Both the position numbers and the translations under genes were made by a program. From a virus (Duplodnaviria; Heunggongvirae; Uroviricota; Caudoviricetes), in the IMG/VR virus record IMGVR_UViG_3300045988_162656: 64,000 nucleotides of DNA, one strand, 5' to 3'. Positions 36,145 to 48,357 of the stretch are shown here, piece by piece. Numbering within the stretch: the first letter of the stretch is position 1; each line of letters starts with the position of its first letter. Below the pieces are notes generated by a model that was not told where the DNA came from, did no database searches, and saw only the letters and a list, made by a program, of their open reading frames with translations.

Positions 36145-36227
36145 GTGCTTTCCTTTTTACTTATCATTTTATATTGATTATATCATTGTGATGATAAGGC
36201 AAGGAGTTCGAGGATAGGGGATATGAG

Positions 36228-36263
36228 GGGATAAGGGAAAACATGGCCATAGAGGCCATGTTT
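36228..36263 (-). terminator. rho-independent terminator after dnaE
   Basis: Stem AACATGGCC/GGCCATGTT then TTTTCCC on minus strand. Confidence 0.6.
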
Positions 36264-36269
36264 ATGGGA

Positions 36270-39200
36270 TCACGTCTTAATGGTTTCTGCTACGTCGGCT
36301 AATATCGCTTCTAGTCGTTCTCCCTCTTCAGGTCTGAAGTAAAGAATGTTGGGGTTAAACCCGTAAAAGACAGTAACGTCAAGGTCTGGAAGGTACTCCT
36401 TCCTGCCGACCAAATCGGATGGCTTGTTTTTGTTGTTAAACAATGCCGTTGCCCGGCTGCCACACGTCAGCACATAGGTCGGACGCACCAGATTGATCTC
36501 TTCACGTATAAAGTCGGTGAACTGGCCGATCTCGTCTTTGGTGTAGTCTTTTTCTTTGTCTTTAACCTTCTTGCAAACGCCTGTGACATAGAGATCGCCC
36601 ATGCGTAAATCTCCAGCCGTCAATAGCTTGGCCTTAAAGTCGTCGTATCCGTTCTCCATAAAGTAACCGGTTCGAGCATCATTGCCGTTCGCATTGTCCA
36701 GAATGATCATGATTTTCGGCTTAATGCCAATGCTAGGGCGGATTAGTTCATCACCTAATCCCATTTCAGCCGCCATCCGTGTCATGAGCACGTTAATCTC
36801 AGCCGAACGTTTGGGGTTCATCTCAAACGGACGTGAGGCTTTAACTGCGTCTATGACAAGGTTTCCCATCAATTCAGCCTGGTCGCGGAGACGCTCTGGA
36901 TCAGTTGCTGGCAGACTACCTGGCTCGATGGATGCAAACGCACCTACTTTTTGCAGTGATTCGCGCACTCGACTATTACAGGCACGTTTCTCGACAGCTT
37001 CTTCGAATTGCGCCAGTGACTCGAATTTGCCGCCAACTTTTTCTCGCGCTCTCATGATGGCTTGGCAGCCATTCTCAGAACACCCTTTCACAGCAGAGAA
37101 GGGCGCATACAGCACCTGGCTGCCATCTTCAAGCGTGCGGATCTCGATTCGGTTAGATGACACGTTAACGTCTGGTGGCAATACGCGAATACCATAGGTC
37201 AGCGCATCTTTAACCAGCCCCTGGTGTTTATCTTCGCCAAGAATAGTGAGAGCAGCAGCGAAGAACTCCGCGGGATAATGAGTTTTCAACCACATAGATT
37301 GATAACTGATTAAGGAGTAAGCAACAGAGTGTGATTTGTTGAACTGGTAGGCACCATTCTTTTCGAATGCGGTCCAGATCTCCTTCGCTTTCATCTCTGA
37401 TAGCCCTGGATGTGACGCTGTAACGCGTACTGCGTTTATAGGTAGTTTTGCGCCGTACTCAAGTGCCTCTTCGACAGTTTTCAGAGTTCCGTCTTCGCAT
37501 TTAAAATGTTCCGCACGGTGAATGCGCTGTGTAGTGCCATCTTCCAGCTCAACGTCTATCCAGCCAGCTTGAGCCTGAACGATGAACTTCTCGCCCATGC
37601 TCTTCATTTTTTCCATGTCTTTTTTGCCGATCGCTTTACGAACGCCGTCAGCTTCAGCCATTGTGAAGCCAGCAAGCAATCGAGTCGCGTTCATCGTCTG
37701 TTCCTGATAGAGAATCACGCCATTTGTTTCTGCGGTAAGTTCATCAAGAACGGGGTGTAATGATTCCGGCGTCATAAAGCCTTTGGCTACAGAAACATAG
37801 TCATCCAACATGCCTGACTGAATTGGCCCCGGCCGGAAGAGCGCAGTCGTAGCAACAACCGTTTTAAAGCTCATTGGCTCAATTCCACCACCTAAATCTT
37901 TAAGCAGCTTGCGCATTGGGCCTGATTCAAGCTGGAAAACACCTTGAGTGTACCCAGCAGCAAAACCATCCAGCACCTTGCGATCTTCAAGAGAAATGGC
38001 ATCAAGATTGATATCTTCACCTGTGTTCTCTTTTATGTAGCGTTTTGCACTATCGAGCAAATCGAGAGTTGCCAGACCAAGTACGTCCAGCTTAATTAGG
38101 CCCATAGCCTCGCAGTAACGCTTGTCAAATGCGATACAACGCGCGTCACCACGGCGTTCAACCGGTGTACGTTCTGTCAGAGGAACACCTGCTACGATCA
38201 TCCCTGCCGCATGTCTACCAAAGCCACGCATAAGACTTTGTAACTTGCAGGCAGCATTGAATGCATCAGGGTATTTTGTCGCGTATTTGTCGAGACTTGC
38301 CAGTTGTTCGCGCAGCTCCTCCAATGGAAGGCTATCATCCTCGACGTTCTTCAGCTCTTTTGATACCGCCATATCTGCGGACTCCACACCATAAATACGA
38401 GCGGTATCACGTAGTGCTGAGGCTGCGCCCAGGTAGGTGAAGTTCGGAATGCCTGCAACGTAATCTTCGCCGTAGCGTTCATTCAGATACTCGATCACCT
38501 CATGGCGACGTGCCTGGCTGAAGTCCAAGTCCGCATCCGGCAAGTCGAGACGCTCAGGGTTGATGAAACGCTCAAACAGAAGACCGTGACGGATTGGGTC
38601 GACGTTGGTTATGCCTATGCACCACGCCACCAGAGAACCGGCAGAGGAACCACGACCAGGCCCGACAGGAATGCCAGTTTCACGGCTGTGATTCATCAGA
38701 TCGCGTACCATCAGGAAGTAACCACAAAATCCCAGGCGAGTCAGCGTGTCCATTTCGTACTTTAGCCGCTCAACATAAACCCTGTTCTCAGAAGCAGGTG
38801 GTGTGTAGCCAAACTCTTTTGTGGTAAGACGTTTACGCAGCCCTGCAACAGCCAGTTTCATAAGCGTTGCAGGCTCGTCGTCTGCCATCTTTGGCAGTGC
38901 TGGTGGCAATTCATGCCAGCGCCATGTGCAGGCATCGATAATGGTATCCTGCGTTGTTGAGGCCATTGCAGCTGTTACCGGCACATCCATGCGAACGGAG
39001 AAGGTTTTCAGCGCCTCAAGGAGATGGCGGCGACCATTGACGGCGTTATCTCGCTGGTGGGGGATACGCAGACGATGCGGCTGGTCGATTTTGATGTTGT
39101 TCGTAACCATGTGCGCAATGTCTTTAATGTCTGCATCGTCGATCGATTCGTAATAAGCGGGATAGAACGCCACTGGCTCTATTTTCAATGCGCTGGCGAC

Positions 39201-39788
39201 TTTCATCGCCCGGACGTTAATCTGGTCGTAGAATGGGGTAGGGTGCGGATAAACCACACTATAGAAGTTGTCTTTTCCACCCGCTGTAATCAGTGTGCTT
39301 ATGATTTTTGCAAAATCGTTGCGTTGGAACACGCTACCGATGTCGGAAGTGAGCAGGATGATGTTGCCTTTGGCATATGTAGAAACCAACTGTTCGAGCG
39401 AGAGACGCGGTACAAAGTAGAACTGTTCTCGTGTGTTGGCCACCGTCATTAGTTCGCAGATGTCGCGATATCCTTGCTCATTTTTAATTAGAGCGGTAAA
39501 CGAGTAGTTACGTCCTCGCTCTAATGATTCCATACATCCCTTAGACTCTTTAGCAATTTTAGCCCGGTACTCGTATGTGGGATCATCAACAATGTTTAGT
39601 TTCACACCACAAATAACCGCCATGTCGTCACCAGCGGCACGTTGTAGTGGAATAACACTCGCAATATTCATGCTATCTGCCGAAATTACAGCGGTGTAGC
39701 CAGCTTCTCTGGCAATCTTCACCGCGTTTTCTGCTTTTAGAGCCGACTCCCCAAGAGAGAAGTCAGTTCGAACCATCAGAGCCTTCAT
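36270..39788 (-). CDS. dnaE: DnaE-type DNA polymerase III alpha-like replicative polymerase
   Basis: 1172 aa; block GFCGYFLMVRDLMNHSRETGIPVGPGRGSSAGSLVAWCIGITNVDP typical of DnaE family. Confidence 0.9.
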   Translation of the reverse strand: MKALMVRTDFSLGESALKAENAVKIAREAGYTAVISADSMNIASVIPLQRAAGDDMAVICGVKLNIVDDPTYEYRAKIAKESKGCMESLERGRNYSFTALIKNEQGYRDICELMTVANTREQFYFVPRLSLEQLVSTYAKGNIILLTSDIGSVFQRNDFAKIISTLITAGGKDNFYSVVYPHPTPFYDQINVRAMKVASALKIEPVAFYPAYYESIDDADIKDIAHMVTNNIKIDQPHRLRIPHQRDNAVNGRRHLLEALKTFSVRMDVPVTAAMASTTQDTIIDACTWRWHELPPALPKMADDEPATLMKLAVAGLRKRLTTKEFGYTPPASENRVYVERLKYEMDTLTRLGFCGYFLMVRDLMNHSRETGIPVGPGRGSSAGSLVAWCIGITNVDPIRHGLLFERFINPERLDLPDADLDFSQARRHEVIEYLNERYGEDYVAGIPNFTYLGAASALRDTARIYGVESADMAVSKELKNVEDDSLPLEELREQLASLDKYATKYPDAFNAACKLQSLMRGFGRHAAGMIVAGVPLTERTPVERRGDARCIAFDKRYCEAMGLIKLDVLGLATLDLLDSAKRYIKENTGEDINLDAISLEDRKVLDGFAAGYTQGVFQLESGPMRKLLKDLGGGIEPMSFKTVVATTALFRPGPIQSGMLDDYVSVAKGFMTPESLHPVLDELTAETNGVILYQEQTMNATRLLAGFTMAEADGVRKAIGKKDMEKMKSMGEKFIVQAQAGWIDVELEDGTTQRIHRAEHFKCEDGTLKTVEEALEYGAKLPINAVRVTASHPGLSEMKAKEIWTAFEKNGAYQFNKSHSVAYSLISYQSMWLKTHYPAEFFAAALTILGEDKHQGLVKDALTYGIRVLPPDVNVSSNRIEIRTLEDGSQVLYAPFSAVKGCSENGCQAIMRAREKVGGKFESLAQFEEAVEKRACNSRVRESLQKVGAFASIEPGSLPATDPERLRDQAELMGNLVIDAVKASRPFEMNPKRSAEINVLMTRMAAEMGLGDELIRPSIGIKPKIMIILDNANGNDARTGYFMENGYDDFKAKLLTAGDLRMGDLYVTGVCKKVKDKEKDYTKDEIGQFTDFIREEINLVRPTYVLTCGSRATALFNNKNKPSDLVGRKEYLPDLDVTVFYGFNPNILYFRPEEGERLEAILADVAETIKT

Positions 39789-39968
39789 GTGTTTTTACCT
39801 TTCTGGTTTTTTTGATTTTGTCATTGGGGAAGCCTACGAACTTCCCATACATCGAAATCGCAACTTCTTTTGCTGATTGGTGACAATCGGGCTTGTCTGG
39901 ACACACCAGGCAAGCCTTGCCAGTTTCAGAAGCAGCGATAAGAGAGCCGAAACATCCTTTACGCACGA

Positions 39969-41204
39969 TTAACCAAATATTTTTTGAACAACTTCACGTG
40001 CCGCTTGCGCAGAAGCTGAAGGGAGTTTGTTAATGAAAGAACGCTCAATACCTGTCACAAAGTCGCCTCGCATCATTCCAATCTTGGCCGACAACAAAAG
40101 TTCACGAGGGCCAATCGGCTGACTGATCAGGTGTTCTTCGTATCCATCGCGAACGATACCGGCAAACTTAACCATCTTTTCAGCGTATTCATCCACGATG
40201 CCAGCATTTATCAACATGCTGATCTCTGCCTCTTTGCTCATGTATTTCACATTCGAAACGATGCCAAAACGCGAAAAGTTAGCGGCGTTCTGGATGTTTG
40301 TACCCTGGTACAAGCCGGTTTCATCACCAGATCCGTTCGTGTTGCCAGTGCCAATGAAAGCAAACCGTTCATGCGGAGTAATGCGACGCCATTCTGGAGT
40401 CGCCTCTTTGATGACCAACGCTTCACCTTCCAGCACTGGCTGATACACGCCAAGAATCTGTGGAAACGCAAAGTCGTATTCATCCGCGAGGTAAACCCAG
40501 CCATGCTTCATTGCGAGCGCAAGCAAGCCAGGCTCGAAATACGTAGAGCCATCACGCGCCAGAATTTGTCCCGTAACATGAGCCTCTTCCATTGATGCTG
40601 TATGTTGGGCACGGATTAACGGACGATTGAGCAAAGCACATAGTTGTGTAGGCAATGAAGATTTGCCTGTTCCTGCATGACCCCACAAATAGCCTGGTAT
40701 GCCAAGTTCAAGCATCATGAAAATGTCTTTGATCAGTTCGAAGTCGCCATATACGTATCCCTTCTTCACTTCTGGAACGAACTCTGGAAACGGCGTATTG
40801 ACGTTGACGCTAACCATGAGCGGCGTCCCACGTTTTGTTCCGAGTTCTTCCACCGTTACGTTTAGCAGTTCGTGAGCTGCGACCAGATCTGTCTTGTACT
40901 CAACTGTGCCTGTGTAGCCAGGGCTACTGGTCAAGCCAGAAGATTTGGCCATTTCGCTTTTTTGCTCGGCACGTTTAGCTTGAATTGCATCAAGTGCCTT
41001 TTTCGATAGCGTTGGTTCATCTGGAAACTGCGTTGTGTACATTTTCAGTACGGTGTCAGGATCGGCATCTTTTACTGACTCAGGAATGCCCTCGCAATTA
41101 CCATTGGCTACATGGGACTTAAAATAGTGAAATGATTTGCCGCACCACTTGCAAACAAGGTAATCAGAAGGATTTTTTTCATTTTGCAGTGCAGTAGTCG
41201 TCAT
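39969..41204 (-). CDS. CobS/MoxR-like AAA+ ATPase
   Basis: Walker A GHAGTGKSS; size and layout like phage CobS-like proteins. Confidence 0.7.
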   Translation of the reverse strand: MTTTALQNEKNPSDYLVCKWCGKSFHYFKSHVANGNCEGIPESVKDADPDTVLKMYTTQFPDEPTLSKKALDAIQAKRAEQKSEMAKSSGLTSSPGYTGTVEYKTDLVAAHELLNVTVEELGTKRGTPLMVSVNVNTPFPEFVPEVKKGYVYGDFELIKDIFMMLELGIPGYLWGHAGTGKSSLPTQLCALLNRPLIRAQHTASMEEAHVTGQILARDGSTYFEPGLLALAMKHGWVYLADEYDFAFPQILGVYQPVLEGEALVIKEATPEWRRITPHERFAFIGTGNTNGSGDETGLYQGTNIQNAANFSRFGIVSNVKYMSKEAEISMLINAGIVDEYAEKMVKFAGIVRDGYEEHLISQPIGPRELLLSAKIGMMRGDFVTGIERSFINKLPSASAQAAREVVQKIFG

Positions 41205-41299
41205 GCGTTTTTCCTTTGTTCTCTAATGAGCGTTCAACTTCTTATATAAATATACCATTAACTATCGTAAGTGGTTACTTATCATTAAGGCTGTTTTAT

Positions 41300-43408
41300 T
41301 CACTTCAAAATGATACGAGATAGTTCAGTAACTACAGATGAACCAAGACTATCAACGCTCGTTACCAGGGCATGATTTGAGTAAAATCTCTCCGGTGCGT
41401 CAGTCATGATGCCAATTGCCATCAAATCAATGTCAGTCTGCGTTTCAATTTGCTTCGCAACCGAACGCAAATGAGCGTCAAAATCTCTCCCAACAGCCCA
41501 CGGCGCGCCATCGCTCAGAACAAGCATGATCTTCCTGTCCTCCAAGCGACCGGAAAATAACGATGCAAGGCTGGCTATGCTTTCACCATCCACGTTATTA
41601 AGAAGTGGGAATGTGTAGCCTACGCACCCCATACGTGAGCGAACTTCGCGAGAATTTACCTTTTCATTCCAATTTTTGATGATAGGTAGCATTAAAGATT
41701 CAAAGCGAGAGAACTCATACTTGACAGCCTTAAGTTCTCCTGCCGCCATATGACTACCAAATGTAGTGAAGCCGGTGATAATGTTGGGAACATTTATTCG
41801 ATCAAGAGCATCGGCGATGGTATATGCACTTGCAAGAGCCAATTGTATCGTTATACCACTCATTGAACCTGATAAATCAATAACTTGTTGAACACAGGCG
41901 TTAACGGCTTTAGATTCTTCTTTTTTACGAAACACGCGATCATCATTCATTGCTAATCTGTAGATACTAGAACCATGAATGCGCCCCCGACGCTGGCCCG
42001 GTATAAACTGAACTCTGTTTCTGCTTGCTATTGCTCGCTCCAGGTCTTTTGCCAGCGTCGACGAAACACCTGACGAAAGATGCTTTTCAATATATTTGTC
42101 GAAGAGCTGGTTGCCTTCAGGAACGATGCGATAGCGGCTGATTGGATATCCTCCTAAATCAATATCGGAGAATGTTTTAATAAGCCGTTTGATATGGGCT
42201 TCTGCCTGATCAATCGAGCCGATGAAGTCGTATGAGCGATTGTATGGCCTGTATTCGCTTTTCGAGCTTTCTGTTAACTCGCTTTTAATCGTTTCGGATA
42301 GAGCATCTTCTGTCATGCCTCCGACTTCATCTTCTATGCTATCCAGCTCCTCTAAAGCCTCTTCCAGACTTATTTTTGACGGAGTTGGAATATCTGAAGA
42401 GCCGTCTTCTGTCGTTTTTCTTTTTTCGTGGTCAGCGGTTAATGATTCTGACGCCGCGTTATCAGAAGCATCAGAATCTGATACCTCTTTATCATTTTCT
42501 GTATCATCGAATATTGTTTCTGATGATTCAGAATTATCTGAATCATCACTGTCGTTAATATCATGTTTGTGCTTACTGTGTGATTCAGATTTGATAGATT
42601 TGTGGCTATCTAACGCTTCGGGTGTCTCATGATCTCCGTTGTCTTCATTGTTTTCTCCAGAGGCATCCGTCTGGTCAGCGTCTGAAGGATCGGGTGTTTT
42701 TCCCGGAGCTGACTCCTTACCTTTGCTTTCACTTTCAGTGTCTTTGAGGATCTTAGCTATGGTCGCAGCCACCTTTACACAATCCTCGGTGCAGGACATG
42801 TTACGCACGGCCACATCGATACCATGTTCTTTTAATAATGAAATTGGTTTCTCAATGACAGGCCAGTATTCATCCATGAAATCTACGAACGGTGCTTGGC
42901 CATCCCAGGCTCTTACAACCGGACAGAGAAAGAAGTTTAGAAAAAGCGCGCGCTGATCTTTGCCACAATAAGCAATAGCCTCTGAAGCCTTTGGTTTAAA
43001 GACTTTTTCGATTATAAGGCGCTGAGTTGCCATCAGATTACGTCTCGTTCCGTTAAAGACCTGCCCCATTTTTCGCTCGATGAACACGTCTTCTAATGCA
43101 TTCCATAGTGACCGGGAAGGAACGCGTCCTTTTTCTCTCATTTTGTTGGACACACGAATATCGGTAAACAAAATGTGAGCAACCTCATGATCGAGAAATC
43201 CGCGCACAGCATTCATCAATGCCGGTGTTGCGTTATCCGGAATTGATGGGATGTTTACGAGAATTGGCTCTCCATCATCGTTATAGCGTACATAAGCGTC
43301 GTCTCCTCGTTCTGCAACAGGGATGTTTTTACCTGAAAGGAGAGCGACTACTCGTTTTACACTGTCACGGAAGTCCTGAACCTCTTTGATGGAACGTTTT
43401 TTAGACAT
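41300..43408 (-). CDS. von Willebrand factor A domain protein (CobT-like) with acidic Ser/Asp-rich central region
   Basis: MIDAS motif DLSGSMSG in C-terminal region; adjacent to AAA+ ATPase. Confidence 0.65.
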   Translation of the reverse strand: MSKKRSIKEVQDFRDSVKRVVALLSGKNIPVAERGDDAYVRYNDDGEPILVNIPSIPDNATPALMNAVRGFLDHEVAHILFTDIRVSNKMREKGRVPSRSLWNALEDVFIERKMGQVFNGTRRNLMATQRLIIEKVFKPKASEAIAYCGKDQRALFLNFFLCPVVRAWDGQAPFVDFMDEYWPVIEKPISLLKEHGIDVAVRNMSCTEDCVKVAATIAKILKDTESESKGKESAPGKTPDPSDADQTDASGENNEDNGDHETPEALDSHKSIKSESHSKHKHDINDSDDSDNSESSETIFDDTENDKEVSDSDASDNAASESLTADHEKRKTTEDGSSDIPTPSKISLEEALEELDSIEDEVGGMTEDALSETIKSELTESSKSEYRPYNRSYDFIGSIDQAEAHIKRLIKTFSDIDLGGYPISRYRIVPEGNQLFDKYIEKHLSSGVSSTLAKDLERAIASRNRVQFIPGQRRGRIHGSSIYRLAMNDDRVFRKKEESKAVNACVQQVIDLSGSMSGITIQLALASAYTIADALDRINVPNIITGFTTFGSHMAAGELKAVKYEFSRFESLMLPIIKNWNEKVNSREVRSRMGCVGYTFPLLNNVDGESIASLASLFSGRLEDRKIMLVLSDGAPWAVGRDFDAHLRSVAKQIETQTDIDLMAIGIMTDAPERFYSNHALVTSVDSLGSSVVTELSRIILK

Positions 43409-43508
43409 GGCTAATCCTTTGTTATGAAAACAAATTATTTACTAGTGTGTTTAATGTAGCACTGCGCGAACAGGGAACTAAGCCATTCGCGCAGGTAGCA
43501 GAGAGGGG

Positions 43509-43721
43509 TTAACAGGTTCTGACGGCTAAAGAGCCAGAGCCGGTATTGATAAGCGTGAAGCGTTTGTTATTAAGTAGGAATATAAAGGCTGTTGCGTCAT
43601 GCATACCAACCTGAATCTGCTCATTTGGTAATTCGGTGAGAATGTCAGCTACACATTCATCAGCTAATTTTTCAACGTGTCCGATCTCAAGAGTGATTAG
43701 GCTGGAAATAGTTGTTTTCAT
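43509..43721 (-). CDS. hypothetical protein
   Basis: ORF track; weak SD. Confidence 0.35.
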   Translation of the reverse strand: MKTTISSLITLEIGHVEKLADECVADILTELPNEQIQVGMHDATAFIFLLNNKRFTLINTGSGSLAVRTC

Positions 43722-45660: not shown

Positions 45661-47574
45661 TTAGGTTGGGTTGTTGATGCTAATGGTAAGTGTTTCGATA
45701 GCAAGATCATGAGTTTGGTTGTTTGTTATATCTGTTAAAACAAAAGCCTCATCACCAAGAGCAATATTGTCTTTAACCAGCTTGAATTTACTCCCCGCCT
45801 TGCCATCGAGAACGGGAATTACAGTTCCTGTGCCTTTCTCATATTGCAACTCAAGAGTGTGCCAATTGTTGTCGTAGTCACCATATGAGTCTATCTGAAC
45901 ATTTCGATTATTGCCTGTCCTGTGCATCATAATGTTCAACTTGCCTCCAATTGTTTGAAGGAAGAAGTTAGCCAGAAACAGGCTCCCAGTACCGTCGAAT
46001 GATATATCGTCAGCAACAGGTTTACTGGTTTTGTAATATATACCAAAGCCAAACTTAGCTTTTTTTGGATCAGGGTTTCCAGATAATTTAAACTTACAAA
46101 GTAATTTACCTCCATTCTCAAGAAGAGTCTGTGCTATGTCAGTAGCTTTACTGATCGTCCAAGTTTCGTTGGAAACCGCTTTAGTTAAAGCAATTGCTTT
46201 TCCGTTTTCAACTGACTGAATATTTGCACCAGTTACAGTCCATCCTTGTTCAGTAGCGACATCACCACCAGCTCCAGTTAAGGAAATAACCGTTCGCGGG
46301 GTTGGAGTTGTGACAATGTTGTCATTTTTAGGTTGAGTAGGTTGTTCTTGTTTAATAATCTCACCTGTAACGCCATTCACAAAAGCAGATGATTTCGCTG
46401 AATGTGCAAGCAGCGCAGTTGCGAGACGATCAGATATTATTCCGCGTCGCTGCCATGAACCAAAATGACTCTCTCTACTCTCGGAAGTCCATGTTTTATT
46501 ATCCTTGCGATGACCGGAACCATAATAGCCAATAGATGTGATGTCTGGATCATCTGTAGGGCTATTGGTTAATACGTTATTATCATTCTCATCTTTCATG
46601 AATGGAACGAAATAAATTGCTTGTGAGGTTTTTCCCTTATAACCACCATAAACAATTTCGTACTGTTTTGGATATTTGTTTTTCCACCAGTGGGTCGTAT
46701 CGCCACAAATCCAGGGTACATTTGCAGCACTTCCGAAAACACATTGTGCGTCGTATTGAGATAGCTCTTTTCTGAAACCTTCGACCATCTTGAGGAACAG
46801 TTCGTTATGCTGCGAGTACTTGCCAGTTGCCAAATCAGCTTCGCCTTGCATCCAGACAACACCAAGAAATACATTCTTTTTGTTTTTACTTAAGGCCGCT
46901 TTTGTTCTGGCTACAATATCCTTATACAAAGGAGTATTTAATCCCCATTTTAAAGATGATTCGATTGCACCTGACTCTTCATAATATTGGCCTTCAGAGC
47001 CTGTAACAGTGAAACCAGAACCACCTCTTCCGCAAGGAACGAGCAAAATACCTGCGTTTGCTGGAATGAATGGTAATAGTTTTTTGCCAATGTGTAGTCC
47101 CTGACCAACACATCCATATTCAGAGTCGTTTGCTTTTGGATGCTTGAATTTAGTCATGTCTTGTACATCATGAAGACAGTGATCAGCGGGAATTATTTCA
47201 TTGTACTTACAGGCAAAACCACCAGGTTTAATATTGCTGCGTCGAGCTAACTGTTTTACGCGAGGATGTGGCCGATCAAAAGTTTTTGGCATAGGCAGTC
47301 CTTCGCCGTATGACATTGAGTTGGATTGACCTGCGATAGTAACTACATAATAATAGTCAGGCTCTTCATCTTCATTTGATACCGGTGTGGGCAATTGTGA
47401 TAAATCACCAGATCGCACAATTGCTTGATTGTACGCATTTGGTCCGCCCTTACTTGGTTCAACAATGTTTGGTGACTCGAAAGGTTGCCAACCCTCTGCG
47501 ATTTTCTTCGCAAGTTTTTCTCTAAGCTCTTTGCTTGATGATGCTGACAAAATATCATAGTCAATGAATGACAT
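45661..47574 (-). CDS. SGNH-type carbohydrate esterase (sialate O-acetylesterase-like) with C-terminal beta-rich domain
   Basis: Motif YYVVTIAGQSNSMSYG resembles the GQSN block of SGNH/O-acetylesterases; SD AAAGGAG. Confidence 0.6.
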   Translation of the reverse strand: MSFIDYDILSASSSKELREKLAKKIAEGWQPFESPNIVEPSKGGPNAYNQAIVRSGDLSQLPTPVSNEDEEPDYYYVVTIAGQSNSMSYGEGLPMPKTFDRPHPRVKQLARRSNIKPGGFACKYNEIIPADHCLHDVQDMTKFKHPKANDSEYGCVGQGLHIGKKLLPFIPANAGILLVPCGRGGSGFTVTGSEGQYYEESGAIESSLKWGLNTPLYKDIVARTKAALSKNKKNVFLGVVWMQGEADLATGKYSQHNELFLKMVEGFRKELSQYDAQCVFGSAANVPWICGDTTHWWKNKYPKQYEIVYGGYKGKTSQAIYFVPFMKDENDNNVLTNSPTDDPDITSIGYYGSGHRKDNKTWTSESRESHFGSWQRRGIISDRLATALLAHSAKSSAFVNGVTGEIIKQEQPTQPKNDNIVTTPTPRTVISLTGAGGDVATEQGWTVTGANIQSVENGKAIALTKAVSNETWTISKATDIAQTLLENGGKLLCKFKLSGNPDPKKAKFGFGIYYKTSKPVADDISFDGTGSLFLANFFLQTIGGKLNIMMHRTGNNRNVQIDSYGDYDNNWHTLELQYEKGTGTVIPVLDGKAGSKFKLVKDNIALGDEAFVLTDITNNQTHDLAIETLTISINNPT

Positions 47575-47799: not shown

Positions 47800-47886
47800 T
47801 GGCGGAGAGTAATGGAATCGAACCATCATCGCTTGCGCAATGGGACGGTTTTCAAGACCGCTTGAGCACCATGCTCCCTACTCTCC
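47800..47886 (-). tRNA. tRNA-Ser (anticodon UGA), type II
   Basis: Hand-folded: acceptor GGAGAGT/ACTCTCC, anticodon arm GCGGT-CTTGAAA-ACCGT, long variable arm, T-loop TTCGATT, encoded CCA; D-arm atypical. Confidence 0.7.
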
Positions 47887-48110
47887 GGCCGTTGTGGTGG
47901 CCGGTACTGAATCTCCGGCATACGGTGCAGCCAATTAGGACTACGGACGATCACCGCTCGCGAAAGGGAAGATTTGCGGCCGCATTTCCCTAACATCCAA
48001 GAAAGCTATCGCATTAGTCTGCGAATCCACCACAACGGTAAGATCACTACCTTTCGACCAGTCATTGTGCACATGAACGACGATTAACCGTAATGATCTT
48101 ATCGTTGTAT

Positions 48111-48186
48111 TGGTGCCGGTTAGCGGACTCGAACCGCTGACATCCTGCTTACAAGGCAGGCGCTCTACCAACTGAGCTAAACCGGC
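48111..48186 (-). tRNA. tRNA-Thr (anticodon UGU)
   Basis: Hand-folded cloverleaf: acceptor GCCGGTT/AACCGGC, D-arm GCTC-AGTTGGTA-GAGC, anticodon loop CTTGTAA, T-loop TTCGAGT, CCA. Confidence 0.85.
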
Positions 48187-48190
48187 AATT

Positions 48191-48277
48191 TGGTGGGGAG
48201 TGATGGAGTCGAACCACCCGAGTTGCAATGACAGTAGATTTACAGTCTACCCAGCTGCCCCTACGGACTAACTCCCC
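48191..48277 (-). tRNA. tRNA-Tyr (anticodon GUA), type II
   Basis: Acceptor GGGGAGT/ACTCCCC, anticodon arm GTAGA-CTGTAAA-TCTAC, long variable arm, T-loop TTCGACT, CCA. Confidence 0.8.
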
Positions 48278-48282
48278 TAAAT

Positions 48283-48357
48283 TGGCGATGGTGGGTGGAT
48301 TCGAACCACCGACCAGTTGGTTAACAGCCAACTGCTCTACCGCTGAGCTACACCATC
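48283..48357 (-). tRNA. tRNA-Asn (anticodon GUU)
   Basis: Acceptor GATGGTG/CACCATC, D-arm GCTC-AGCGGTA-GAGC, anticodon arm GTTGG-CTGTTAA-CCAAC, T-loop TTCGAAT, CCA. Confidence 0.85.

What the first reader, a model, noticed from the sequence alone, without database searches (positions are those of the whole stretch)
39969..43408. CobS-like AAA+ ATPase paired with a vWA protein in the replication module
This MoxR/CobS-like ATPase plus vWA (MIDAS DLSGSMSG) pair sits between dnaE and the HTH gene. The vWA protein has an unusually long acidic Ser/Asp-rich middle region. The role of such pairs in phages is not established.
Basis: partly seen in the sequence, partly recalled or inferred. Interest (0 to 1): 0.5.

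Follow-up and report, generated by a model that had tools for sequence, protein, structure and literature searches.

The report
Phage CobS/CobT-like ATPase–protease adaptor pair
This is the well-known phage "cobS/cobT" gene pair, here in an E. coli phage-plasmid. It almost certainly does not make vitamin B12: the vWA partner keeps an intact zinc-protease motif that true CobT has lost, and no CobN partner is encoded on the phage.

Summary
Both ORFs are real and lie at the stated coordinates. The window is 100% identical to Escherichia phage CMS-2020a, an SSU5-type phage-plasmid.

The 411-aa protein is a CobS-like MoxR-class AAA+ ATPase with every catalytic motif intact. The 702-aa protein is CobT-like: an N-domain, an acidic disordered linker, a "shaft" segment and a vWA domain with MIDAS DLSGS.

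The "unusually long" linker claim fails. At 143 aa it is shorter than in 77% of family representatives, and true bacterial CobT has an acidic linker too.

The pair is already described in phage literature as a cobalt-chelatase auxiliary gene. That reading does not fit here:
- Both proteins score far below the NCBIfam equivalog cut-offs.
- The near-identical relative Cyrano encodes no CobN and no B12-dependent enzyme.
- E. coli lacks the aerobic B12 pathway.

The N-domain models confidently as an M48-like zincin. It keeps HExxH plus downstream glutamates, as do 119 of 126 diverse relatives. All five authentic bacterial CobTs examined have lost the motif.

Best reading: an ATP-driven motor–adaptor that remodels, and probably cleaves, an unknown protein client. 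It is encoded in line with the phage DnaE replicase. The function is untested. As a gene pair it is already known.

The parts
41300..43408 (-). CobT-like gene (702 aa): zincin-like N-domain, acidic linker, shaft, vWA-MIDAS domain
   Evidence: ORF. Pfam CobT_C 2.1e-81 and CobT 7.6e-28. phrog_1576 7e-298. TIGR01651 scores only 70.4 bits against a cut-off of 759. PDB 9uka_G 1.9e-16.
42776..43408 (-). CobT-like N-domain (aa 1-211), M48-like zincin fold
43175..43189 (-). HEVAH (H74-E75-x-x-H78), zincin metal-binding and catalytic motif
   Evidence: Present in 7 of 8 phage lineages and in 119 of 126 representatives retrieved with the C-domain alone. Absent from all 5 authentic bacterial CobTs.
43076..43102 (-). 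NALEDVFIE (N103...E106...E111), candidate third zinc ligand on the following helix
   Evidence: E106 and E111 are invariant in the 71-sequence alignment A3. An E-x3-hydrophobic-E motif follows HExxH in 117 of 119 cases. It lies in predicted helix 96-117.
42347..42775 (-). Acidic, Ser/Asp/Glu-rich disordered linker (aa 212-354, net charge -26)
   Evidence: Only 35% identical to SSU5, against 76-77% for the flanking domains. No DNA tandem repeats. The Brucella CobT linker is disordered.
41915..42043 (-). Predicted 'shaft' segment (aa 456-498, LERAIAS...RKKEE), aligned to Brucella CobT Q373-R413, which inserts into the CobS ring
   Evidence: Alignment. Described in the structure paper. Many nearly invariant columns in A3.
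41855..41878 (-). MIDAS DxSxS motif, DLSGSMSG (D511, S513, S515)
   Evidence: Corresponds to Brucella D422/S424/S426.
41501..41599 (-). Remaining MIDAS residues: N605 within NNVDGES, and D633 within LSDGAP
   Evidence: Correspond to Brucella N518 and D546.
39969..41204 (-). CobS-like MoxR-class AAA+ ATPase gene (411 aa)
   Evidence: ORF. AAA_5 2.2e-15. phrog_249 9e-106. TIGR01650 scores 83.5 bits against a cut-off of 558.55. PDB CobS 9ujv 8e-25, ahead of midasin, CbbQ and NorQ.
41112..41153 (-). C18-x2-C21-x4-H26-x4-H31 zinc-finger-like motif (plus C37) in the ~140-aa N-terminal extension that bacterial CobS lacks
   Evidence: Conserved in all 49 distinct full-length SSU5-type CobS-like sequences from fetched loci, down to 67% identity, and in nickie. 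No Pfam match for the extension.
40659..40682 (-). Walker A, GHAGTGKS (K181)
   Evidence: Invariant in A4.
40473..40487 (-). Walker B, ADEYD (D241, E242)
   Evidence: Brucella D141/E142.
40101..40349 (-). Sensor-1 N288 (TGNT), arginine finger R312 (FSRFG) and sensor-2 R367 (GPRE)
   Evidence: Brucella N186, R210 and R271.
39763..39966 (-). orf67: small Cys-rich protein between cobS-like and dnaE. It starts 2 nt after the cobS stop and overlaps the dnaE start by 26 nt. Operon context; function unknown.
   Evidence: phrog_6337 4e-47. Same arrangement in SSU5.
36270..39788 (-). dnaE (Pol III alpha-type replicase), immediately downstream on the same strand. Context, not part of the pair.
   Evidence: Pfam PHP, DNA_pol3_alpha, finger and HHH_6 domains. 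The order cobT-cobS-small ORF(s)-dnaE is conserved in SSU5, RHEph10 and nickie.

Best explanation
The two genes encode the mobile-element version of the CobS/CobT motor-adaptor pair. They are not a cobalt chelatase.

Shown:
- The CobS-like protein has a complete AAA+ catalytic set.
- The CobT-like protein has the same parts as structurally solved CobT: an N-domain, an acidic disordered linker, a conserved segment aligned to the 'shaft', and a vWA-MIDAS domain.
- Unlike true CobT, its M48-like N-domain keeps an intact HExxH...E zincin site.
- No CobN and no B12-dependent enzyme is annotated in the close relative Cyrano, and the window holds no CobN-sized ORF other than DnaE. E. coli lacks CobN and the substrate.
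- The genes lie in one co-directional block with the phage DnaE replicase.

Inferred:
- Six CobS-like subunits form an ATP-driven ring that grips the CobT-like shaft.
- The CobT N-domain docks on the ATPase small subdomain through conserved polar contacts.
- The MIDAS face and the N-domain together hold a protein client, where CobN sits in the chelatase.
- ATP hydrolysis remodels that client, and the tethered zincin cleaves it.

The client is unknown. The location suggests action early or mid-infection, or during plasmid replication, on a phage or host protein linked to DNA replication or to establishment of the element.
For: Homology and motifs.

Architecture matches the solved Brucella CobST:
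- The shaft region aligns and is highly conserved.
- The MIDAS residues are all present.
- The interface residues of Brucella CobT (R76, D80, N130) correspond to window R69, D73 and N124. D73 is invariant and N124 nearly invariant in A3.
- Brucella CobS E308, Q311 and R312 correspond to window E404, Q407 and K408.

Zincin site:
- HExxH plus downstream Glu occurs in 7 of 8 phage lineages.
- It occurs in 119 of 126 representatives retrieved by the vWA domain only, so the search was not biased toward the motif.
- It is absent from 5 of 5 authentic bacterial CobTs, which form one clade in a neighbour-joining tree.

Not a chelatase:
- Scores are 83.5 vs 558.55 and 70.4 vs 759 against the NCBIfam equivalogs.
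- There is no CobS_N domain and no counterpart of the C-terminal helix alpha10.
- No CobN or B12-dependent enzyme is annotated in the near-identical phage Cyrano; its ribonucleotide reductase is the class I alpha/beta type.
- E. coli needs about 30 heterologous genes, including cobNST, to make B12.

Context in DNA-metabolism modules of unrelated mobile elements:
- SSU5, RHEph10 and nickie: next to dnaE.
- ICP2: next to primase, helicase and PolA.
- S-PM2: between gp46/47 and gp45/44/62/43.
- Marinobacter MOBH conjugative plasmid: next to RecT, lambda exonuclease and a toprim gene.

A MoxR plus metallopeptidase-vWA reading was proposed independently for T4-like jumbo phages.
Against: - No experiment exists for any phage member.
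- Protease activity is inferred from motif and fold only. I could not inspect zinc-site geometry in the model.
- A few family members, including phage nickie, have lost HExxH yet keep the pair. Proteolysis is therefore not indispensable everywhere.
- Co-location with replication genes is weak evidence of a functional link. In CRP-810 and Gordonia phage Woes the neighbours are uninformative.
- The phage CobS lacks helix alpha10, which contributes to CobT_N docking in Brucella. The assembly may differ.
- No client candidate was identified.
Confidence: 0.5

Rival explanations
1. Genuine cobaltochelatase subunits carried as an auxiliary metabolic gene. Viral CobST would hijack host CobN to raise cobalamin supply during infection. 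This is the usual reading in the literature.
For: Clear homology to CobS and CobT, with solved CobS and CobT as the best PDB matches. Proposed by Seed 2011, Liu 2021 and the cyanophage literature.
Against: No CobN is annotated in the near-identical relative Cyrano, and the window holds no CobN-sized ORF other than DnaE. E. coli lacks CobN and the hydrogenobyrinic acid a,c-diamide substrate (plus general knowledge). Scores are far below the equivalog cut-offs. The phage ribonucleotide reductase is class I, so B12-independent. The conserved zincin site is unexplained by a chelatase role and is lost in real CobT. The pair also occurs in phages of V. cholerae and in conjugative plasmids.
Confidence: 0.03
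2. A non-proteolytic MoxR-type metallochaperone. The ATPase-vWA pair would insert or mature a metal centre in a phage replication enzyme, such as the DnaE PHP domain or the class I ribonucleotide reductase. The HExxH site would hold or deliver the metal rather than cut peptide bonds.
For: Characterised relatives act in metal insertion or complex maturation: CobSTN, NorQD, CoxDE, CbbQO. The pair is adjacent to DnaE with its PHP domain. Ribonucleotide reductase genes are in the genome.
Against: The catalytic Glu of HExxH (E75) is as conserved as the two His ligands. That is expected for hydrolysis, not for simple metal binding. The pair also occurs in phages with unrelated polymerases, PolA in ICP2 and gp43 in S-PM2. 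No direct evidence either way.
Confidence: 0.2
3. A virion-assembly chaperone and protease. The pair would fold and process structural proteins, as proposed for T4-like jumbo phages and by analogy with the MoxR-vWA pair of Acidianus two-tailed virus.
For: Proposed by Iyer et al. 2021. The metallopeptidase-vWA plus MoxR architecture is the same.
Against: Here the genes lie in line with the replicase, far from the structural module, which occupies about 0-28 kb in Cyrano. In S-PM2 they lie among early and middle replication genes. A homologous zincin-vWA plus AAA cluster sits on a conjugative plasmid that makes no virions.
Confidence: 0.1
4. A host-takeover or anti-defence effector. The client would be a host protein, such as a defence factor or a replisome component, that is captured, unfolded and cleaved to let the incoming element establish itself.
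Against: No match to known defence models. The ArdC, CapP and AcrIIA26 similarities are generic or marginal. No host target is known.
Confidence: 0.15

Closest known systems
Aerobic cobaltochelatase CobS/CobT of the CobNST enzyme (Brucella melitensis structures 9ujv and 9uka; Sinorhizobium, Cereibacter and Pandoraea loci)
   Same: - AAA+ ATPase with Walker A/B, sensor-1, arginine finger and sensor-2.
- CobT with an N-domain of M48-like fold, an acidic disordered linker, a shaft segment and a vWA-MIDAS domain.
- Conserved polar residues at the CobS small-subdomain / CobT_N interface.
- The genes are adjacent.
   Different: - 27% identity or less to S. meliloti CobT in any region, and far below the equivalog cut-offs.
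- The phage CobT keeps HExxH...E; true CobT has D-[SA]-x-A-L-[RQ] at that position.
- The phage CobS lacks CobS_N and the C-terminal helix alpha10. It has a 140-aa N-extension with a Cys2-His2-like motif.
- Gene order is T then S, not S then T.
- There is no CobN partner.
Phage 'cobST' cluster (SSU5, pHCM2/pMT1-type plasmids, ICP2, CRP-810, haloarchaeal tailed viruses, T4-like cyanophage cobS plus 'peptidase')
   Same: This is that cluster. The window is 100% identical to phage CMS-2020a and 98% to Cyrano and PhiR41_1. Its CobT-like protein covers 85% of SSU5's over two aligned pieces at 72% identity. Domain structure and gene order match those in SSU5, RHEph10, nickie, ICP2 and S-PM2.
   Different: Nothing substantive. 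The linker is shorter than in SSU5 (143 vs 207 aa).
MoxR AAA+ / vWA chaperone pairs (NorQ-NorD, CbbQ-CbbO, RavA-ViaA, CoxD-CoxE) and the MoxR plus metallopeptidase-vWA pair noted in jumbo phages
   Same: A motor-adaptor design with a MIDAS-bearing vWA adaptor encoded next to a MoxR-class ATPase. Iyer et al. 2021 reported an N-terminal metallopeptidase on the vWA partner.
   Different: Sequence-wise the ATPase is closest to CobS, not to NorQ, CbbQ or RavA. The client is unknown. Here the context is replication, not structural genes.
M48/M56 and minigluzincin metallopeptidases (Ste24/ZMPSTE24, BepA, BlaR1, jannalysin)
   Same: The N-domain has a zincin fold, an HExxH on the active-site helix, and conserved Glu residues 28-33 residues downstream.

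Membership tests
Cobaltochelatase subunit CobS (NCBIfam TIGR01650 equivalog) | AAA+ catalytic residues: Walker A Lys, Walker B Asp-Glu, sensor-1 Asn, arginine finger, sensor-2 Arg | tested here: met
   K181, D241/E242, N288, R312 and R367 align with Brucella G71-S78, D141/E142, N186, R210 and R271.
Cobaltochelatase subunit CobS (NCBIfam TIGR01650 equivalog) | Whole-protein score at or above the curated equivalog cut-off | tested here: not met
   83.5 bits against a cut-off of 558.55.
Cobaltochelatase subunit CobS (NCBIfam TIGR01650 equivalog) | CobS_N N-terminal segment (PF12556) and C-terminal helix alpha10, which docks CobT_N | tested here: not met
   No PF12556 hit in the window protein, whereas S. 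meliloti and Caballeronia CobS have it. The phage protein ends at the position of Brucella G315, so E317, A322, A323, I325 and V326 have no counterpart.
Cobaltochelatase subunit CobT (NCBIfam TIGR01651 equivalog) | CobT_C vWA domain with a complete MIDAS, and the CobT N-domain | tested here: met
   PF11775 273 bits and PF06213 98 bits, both above cut-off. D511, S513, S515, N605 and D633 are present.
Cobaltochelatase subunit CobT (NCBIfam TIGR01651 equivalog) | Whole-protein score at or above the curated equivalog cut-off | tested here: not met
   70.4 bits against a cut-off of 759.05.
Cobaltochelatase subunit CobT (NCBIfam TIGR01651 equivalog) | Acidic disordered linker and a shaft segment preceding the vWA domain | tested here: met
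   Linker aa 212-354, net charge -26. Shaft aa 456-498 aligns to Brucella Q373-R413 and is conserved across the family.
CobNST cobaltochelatase holoenzyme (EC 6.6.1.2) | A CobN subunit and the substrate hydrogenobyrinic acid a,c-diamide available in the same cell | tested here: not met
   The window has no CobN-sized ORF other than DnaE, and none is annotated in the complete relative Cyrano. The absence of CobN and the aerobic pathway from E. coli rests on established knowledge; I did not search E. coli genomes here.
CobNST cobaltochelatase holoenzyme (EC 6.6.1.2) | ATP-dependent cobalt insertion activity | not testable with these tools
   Needs biochemistry or complementation.
MoxR-class AAA+ / vWA motor-adaptor pairs | A MoxR-class (AAA_5) ATPase encoded next to a vWA protein with an intact MIDAS | tested here: met
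   The genes are adjacent and co-directional, 95 nt apart. AAA_5 and MIDAS are present.
Zincin (gluzincin, M48-like) metallopeptidases | HExxH on a helix plus a downstream Glu ligand, conserved across relatives | tested here: met
   H74, E75, H78, E106 and E111. Present in 119 of 126 representatives.
Zincin (gluzincin, M48-like) metallopeptidases | Zincin fold | tested here: met
Zincin (gluzincin, M48-like) metallopeptidases | Zinc binding and peptide-bond hydrolysis | not testable with these tools
   I could not inspect the model coordinates, and no biochemistry is available.
Known anti-phage defence systems (PADLOC-DB) | Significant match to a defence-system protein model | tested here: not met
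   Only a 14.9-bit DrmE hit (E 0.0018) over the low-complexity linker.

The most novel reading that the evidence does not exclude
The mobile-element 'CobST' family would be a split, ATP-driven, vWA-targeted metalloprotease or remodeller, not a vitamin-B12 auxiliary gene. It includes the cobS that is core to marine cyanomyoviruses and is routinely counted as a cobalamin gene in viromics. The true chelatase CobT would then be a derived branch that lost the protease site when it was recruited to CobN. An E. coli K-12 phage-plasmid would be the first genetically easy system in which to find the client.
Probability: 0.35. Interest if true: 0.65.

Novelty: already known. Interest (0 to 1): 0.38.

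Why it matters
Viral cobS/cobT is one of the most often cited auxiliary metabolic genes. It is core in T4-like cyanophages and widespread in pelagiphages, roseophages and archaeal viruses. It is interpreted as boosting host B12 synthesis, yet no one has tested it.

The same pair is carried by over a thousand enterobacterial and Acinetobacter phage-plasmid records, including Yersinia pestis plasmids. Their hosts cannot use a CobN-dependent chelatase.

A conserved zinc-protease site separates the mobile-element form from real CobT. That gives a concrete alternative that point mutants can test in a tractable E. coli system. It also warns against counting these genes as cobalamin biosynthesis in metagenomic surveys.

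The gene pair itself is ordinary and already catalogued.

Tried and rejected
- A profile of phage N-domains did not reach Brucella CobT_N by sequence. The only marginal hit was AcrIIA26, E 0.015. The single-sequence search gave chance HLA and SOD hits.
- The genome-contig scan with alignment A1 failed because no stretch was conserved enough.
- The IMG/VR scan with A3 returned only close SSU5-type loci, which added no diversity.
- Contigs for divergent representatives were 2-4 kb. They showed only that the AAA gene follows the CobT-like gene.
The extension has no Pfam match.
- PADLOC gave no meaningful defence match.
- The linker has no DNA tandem repeats, so repeat slippage does not explain its length variation.
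- The promoter and terminator scan found no more sites than shuffled sequence: 5 against 9.0 expected, and 4 against 4.4.
- Literature searches found no knockout, expression-timing or biochemical data for any phage cobST.
- I considered a DNA-mimic role for the acidic linker and set it aside, because true CobT has the same kind of linker.


Full report
**1. What is there**

The window holds two adjacent minus-strand ORFs at exactly the stated coordinates: 39969-41204 (411 aa) and 41300-43408 (702 aa), 95 nt apart. The region is 100% identical to Escherichia phage CMS-2020a (CP054387) and 98% identical to phages Cyrano and PhiR41_1. All are about 108-kb elements carrying RepA, ParA and ParB, so they are SSU5-type phage-plasmids.

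The 411-aa protein matches AAA_5, PD_CobS and phrog_249. Its best solved relatives are Brucella CobS (8e-25), then midasin, CbbQ and NorQ. The 702-aa protein matches both Pfam CobT families (CobT_C 2e-81, CobT N-domain 8e-28), phrog_1576 and Brucella CobT. DLSGSMSG is at aa 511-518.

The pair lies between dnaE and the HTH gene. A small conserved ORF sits on each side (orf67, orf70). A gp32-like SSB, a UvsY-like protein and a 5'-3' exonuclease lie downstream, and ligase, primase and helicase lie upstream.

**2. The linker claim**

The acidic S/D/E-rich middle region is real: about aa 212-354, net charge -26. It is not unusual.
- True bacterial CobTs have acidic linkers of 98-112 aa. The structure paper describes about 90 disordered residues in Brucella CobT.
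- SSU5 has 207 aa and RHEph10 has 294 aa.
- Among 126 full-length 50%-identity representatives the median is 176.5 aa. 77% are longer than this one, and 99% are net negative.
- The linker evolves fast. It is 35% identical to SSU5, against 76-77% for the folded domains. It contains no DNA tandem repeats.

**3. How common it is**

- The closest 90%-identity cluster holds 3307 member sequences.
- At least 362 IMG/VR loci encode a close relative.
- A divergent CobT-like query (roseophage CRP-810) matches 1031 plasmid records. These are mostly about 100-115-kb replicons of Klebsiella, Escherichia, Acinetobacter, Enterobacter, Yersinia and Salmonella.
- Among isolated phages, CobT-like genes occur in SSU5-type phages, Rhizobium RHEph10-type phages, Pseudomonas nickie-type phages, Stenotrophomonas ANB28, roseophage CRP-810, Vibrio ICP2 and Gordonia/Tsukamurella phages. 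CobS-like genes occur in 701 records, dominated by T4-like cyanophages.
- The literature treats the pair as cobalt-chelatase auxiliary genes. It proposes that viral CobST hijacks host CobN, and concedes that the function is uncertain.

**4. Comparison with the solved chelatase**

A 2026 preprint (10.64898/2026.07.21.739949) describes the Brucella enzyme:
- CobS forms a hexameric ring.
- CobT consists of an M48C-peptidase-like N-domain, a disordered linker, a shaft that enters the ring on nucleotide binding, and a vWA domain whose MIDAS faces CobN.
- CobN is clamped between the two CobT domains.

The window proteins carry almost all of this.
- All AAA+ catalytic residues are present.
- The shaft segment aligns and is among the best conserved parts of the family.
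- All five MIDAS residues are present.
- The polar contacts between CobT_N and the CobS small subdomain have counterparts. Brucella CobT R76, D80 and N130 correspond to window R69, D73 and N124. Brucella CobS E308, Q311 and R312 correspond to window E404, Q407 and K408.

Four things differ.
- The phage CobS lacks CobS_N and the C-terminal helix alpha10.
- It carries a 140-aa N-extension with a C-x2-C-x4-H-x4-H motif. The motif is conserved in every SSU5-type relative I hold, down to 67% identity.
- Gene order is T then S in five of the seven comparison phage lineages. It is S then T in the five annotated bacterial loci.
- Both proteins score far below the NCBIfam equivalog cut-offs: 83.5 vs 558.55 and 70.4 vs 759.05.

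**5. The zincin site**

The phage N-domain contains HEVAH (aa 74-78), followed by NALEDVFIE (aa 103-111).
- Seven of eight phage lineages keep HExxH. Phage nickie has SEISK instead.
- To avoid bias I searched 1.84 billion representative proteins with the C-terminal vWA domain only. There were 4295 hits at E≤1e-3.
- Of the top 150 hits, 126 are full length. 119 of these have HExxH in the first 260 residues, and 117 also have the downstream Glu motif. Five show a degraded motif at the same position, and two lack the N-terminus.
- In a 71-sequence alignment, D73, H74, E75, H78, E106 and E111 are invariant. H74, E75 and H78 are invariant partly by my selection of sequences; E106 and E111 are not.
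- All five authentic bacterial CobTs lack the motif. They are from Sinorhizobium, Cereibacter, Pandoraea and Sphingomonas, plus a Caballeronia gene next to a CobS_N-type ATPase and a CobW GTPase. They read D-[SA]-x-A-L-[RQ] at that position.
- In a rough neighbour-joining tree of C-domains these five form one clade among HExxH-bearing mobile-element lineages. I place little weight on the tree beyond that grouping.
- An AlphaFold2 model of aa 1-226 is confident (pLDDT 92.3, pTM 0.88). It has the helix, three-strand sheet and helical bundle reported for Brucella CobT_N.
- Iyer et al. 2021 independently noted a MoxR plus metallopeptidase-vWA pair in T4-like jumbo phages and suggested a virion-assembly role. 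The protease reading is therefore not new in itself.

**6. Why not a chelatase here**

- The window has no CobN-sized ORF apart from DnaE.
- The complete annotated relative Cyrano encodes no CobN and no B12-dependent enzyme. Its ribonucleotide reductase is the class I alpha/beta type.
- E. coli needs about 30 heterologous genes, including cobN, cobS and cobT, to make B12. Its lack of the aerobic pathway is also established knowledge.
- The pair also occurs in V. cholerae phage ICP2.
- A zincin-vWA homolog (HESAH, NLIEDIRIE) lies on a Marinobacter MOBH conjugative plasmid. An AAA ATPase and a DUF3150 protein are in the same cluster, next to RecT, a lambda-type exonuclease and a toprim gene. pAQU1 lists a similar pair.

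**7. Context**

- The order cobT, cobS, small ORF(s), dnaE is kept in SSU5, RHEph10 and nickie, although the proteins are only about 30-38% identical.
- ICP2 places the pair just upstream of primase, helicase and PolA.
- S-PM2 places a 'Peptidase' (the CobT-like gene) plus CobS between gp46/47 and gp45/44/62/43.
- In CRP-810 and Gordonia phage Woes the neighbours are uninformative.
- This points to early or middle expression alongside DNA metabolism. It does not prove a functional link.

**8. Verdict**

The most likely mechanism is a CobST-like ring-and-shaft motor. Its adaptor uses the MIDAS face and a catalytically competent zincin to hold, remodel and probably cut an unidentified protein client. 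I give this about 0.5. A true chelatase role gets about 0.03, a non-proteolytic metallochaperone 0.2, a virion-assembly role 0.1, and a specifically anti-defence or host-takeover client 0.15.

As a gene pair it is already known and very common. The useful outcome is a sharp, testable distinction from real CobT in a tractable host.

Noticed in passing
L001 11999-15438 (Cyrano CYRAN_47 and CYRAN_48): Cyrano labels the CobT-like gene 'dimethylbenzimidazole phosphoribosyltransferase' and the CobS-like gene 'cobalamin synthetase'. Those are the unrelated Salmonella-nomenclature CobT and CobS enzymes, so this is a name-collision error. The CRP-810 paper makes the same mix-up in its text.
   Followed up: partly
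window 39763-39966 (-): A 67-aa Cys-rich ORF (phrog_6337) starts 2 nt after the cobS-like stop codon and overlaps the dnaE start by 26 nt. SSU5 has the same arrangement. Its function is unknown; it may be a replicase accessory factor.
   Followed up: partly
window 43462-43494 and 43509-43721 (-): A conserved 70-aa ORF (phrog_2627) lies upstream of the CobT-like gene. Between the two is a 9-bp inverted repeat with a 15-nt loop (CTGCGCGAA...TTCGCGCAG) and no following T-run. It could be a regulatory hairpin or an operator.
   Followed up: no
window 45661-47574 (-): A 637-aa ORF with DUF1737, a SASA-type carbohydrate acetylesterase domain and DUF6645 lies between the integrase and the tRNA cluster. 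Cyrano has different small genes at this position, so this looks like a variable cargo gene, possibly one that modifies a surface polysaccharide.
   Followed up: partly
window 47800-48357 (-): A cluster of four tRNA genes (Ser-TGA, Thr-TGT, Tyr-GTA, Asn-GTT). Cyrano has only Asn, Thr and Ser annotated, so tRNA-Tyr appears to be extra here.
   Followed up: no
window 36270-39788 (-), aa 1054-1122 of DnaE: The phage DnaE has a weak uracil-DNA-glycosylase-like match at its C-terminus (E 0.016). The RHEph10 polymerase annotation mentions the same feature.
   Followed up: no
L001 6615-7463 compared with window 36145-36269: Cyrano carries a HicA/HicB toxin-antitoxin pair between dnaE and the UvsY-like gene. 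The window has only a 125-nt gap there.
   Followed up: no
L101 3284-7734 (Marinobacter pMAQU02, MOBH conjugative plasmid): A cluster of an AAA ATPase (with CbbQ_C), a hypothetical gene, DUF3150 and a CobT-like zincin-vWA protein (HESAH) sits between RecT/lambda-exonuclease and a toprim gene. The HExxH form of the pair is therefore also present on conjugative elements. pAQU1 lists similar genes.
   Followed up: partly
profile A2 (phage CobT N-domains) against PDB 9zq6_B: A marginal profile match (E 0.015, 50 residues) links the N-x2-ED-x-FIE helix region to the anti-CRISPR AcrIIA26. It may be chance.
   Followed up: no
L009 5704-7679 (Staphylococcus phage Team1) and Listeria A511-type phages: The roughly 25%-identical AAA ATPases of Kayvirus and Listeria myoviruses are sometimes annotated as CobS or porphyrin biosynthesis. 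In Team1 the gene is followed by a DUF7192 protein, not a CobT-like vWA protein, so that annotation looks unfounded.
   Followed up: partly
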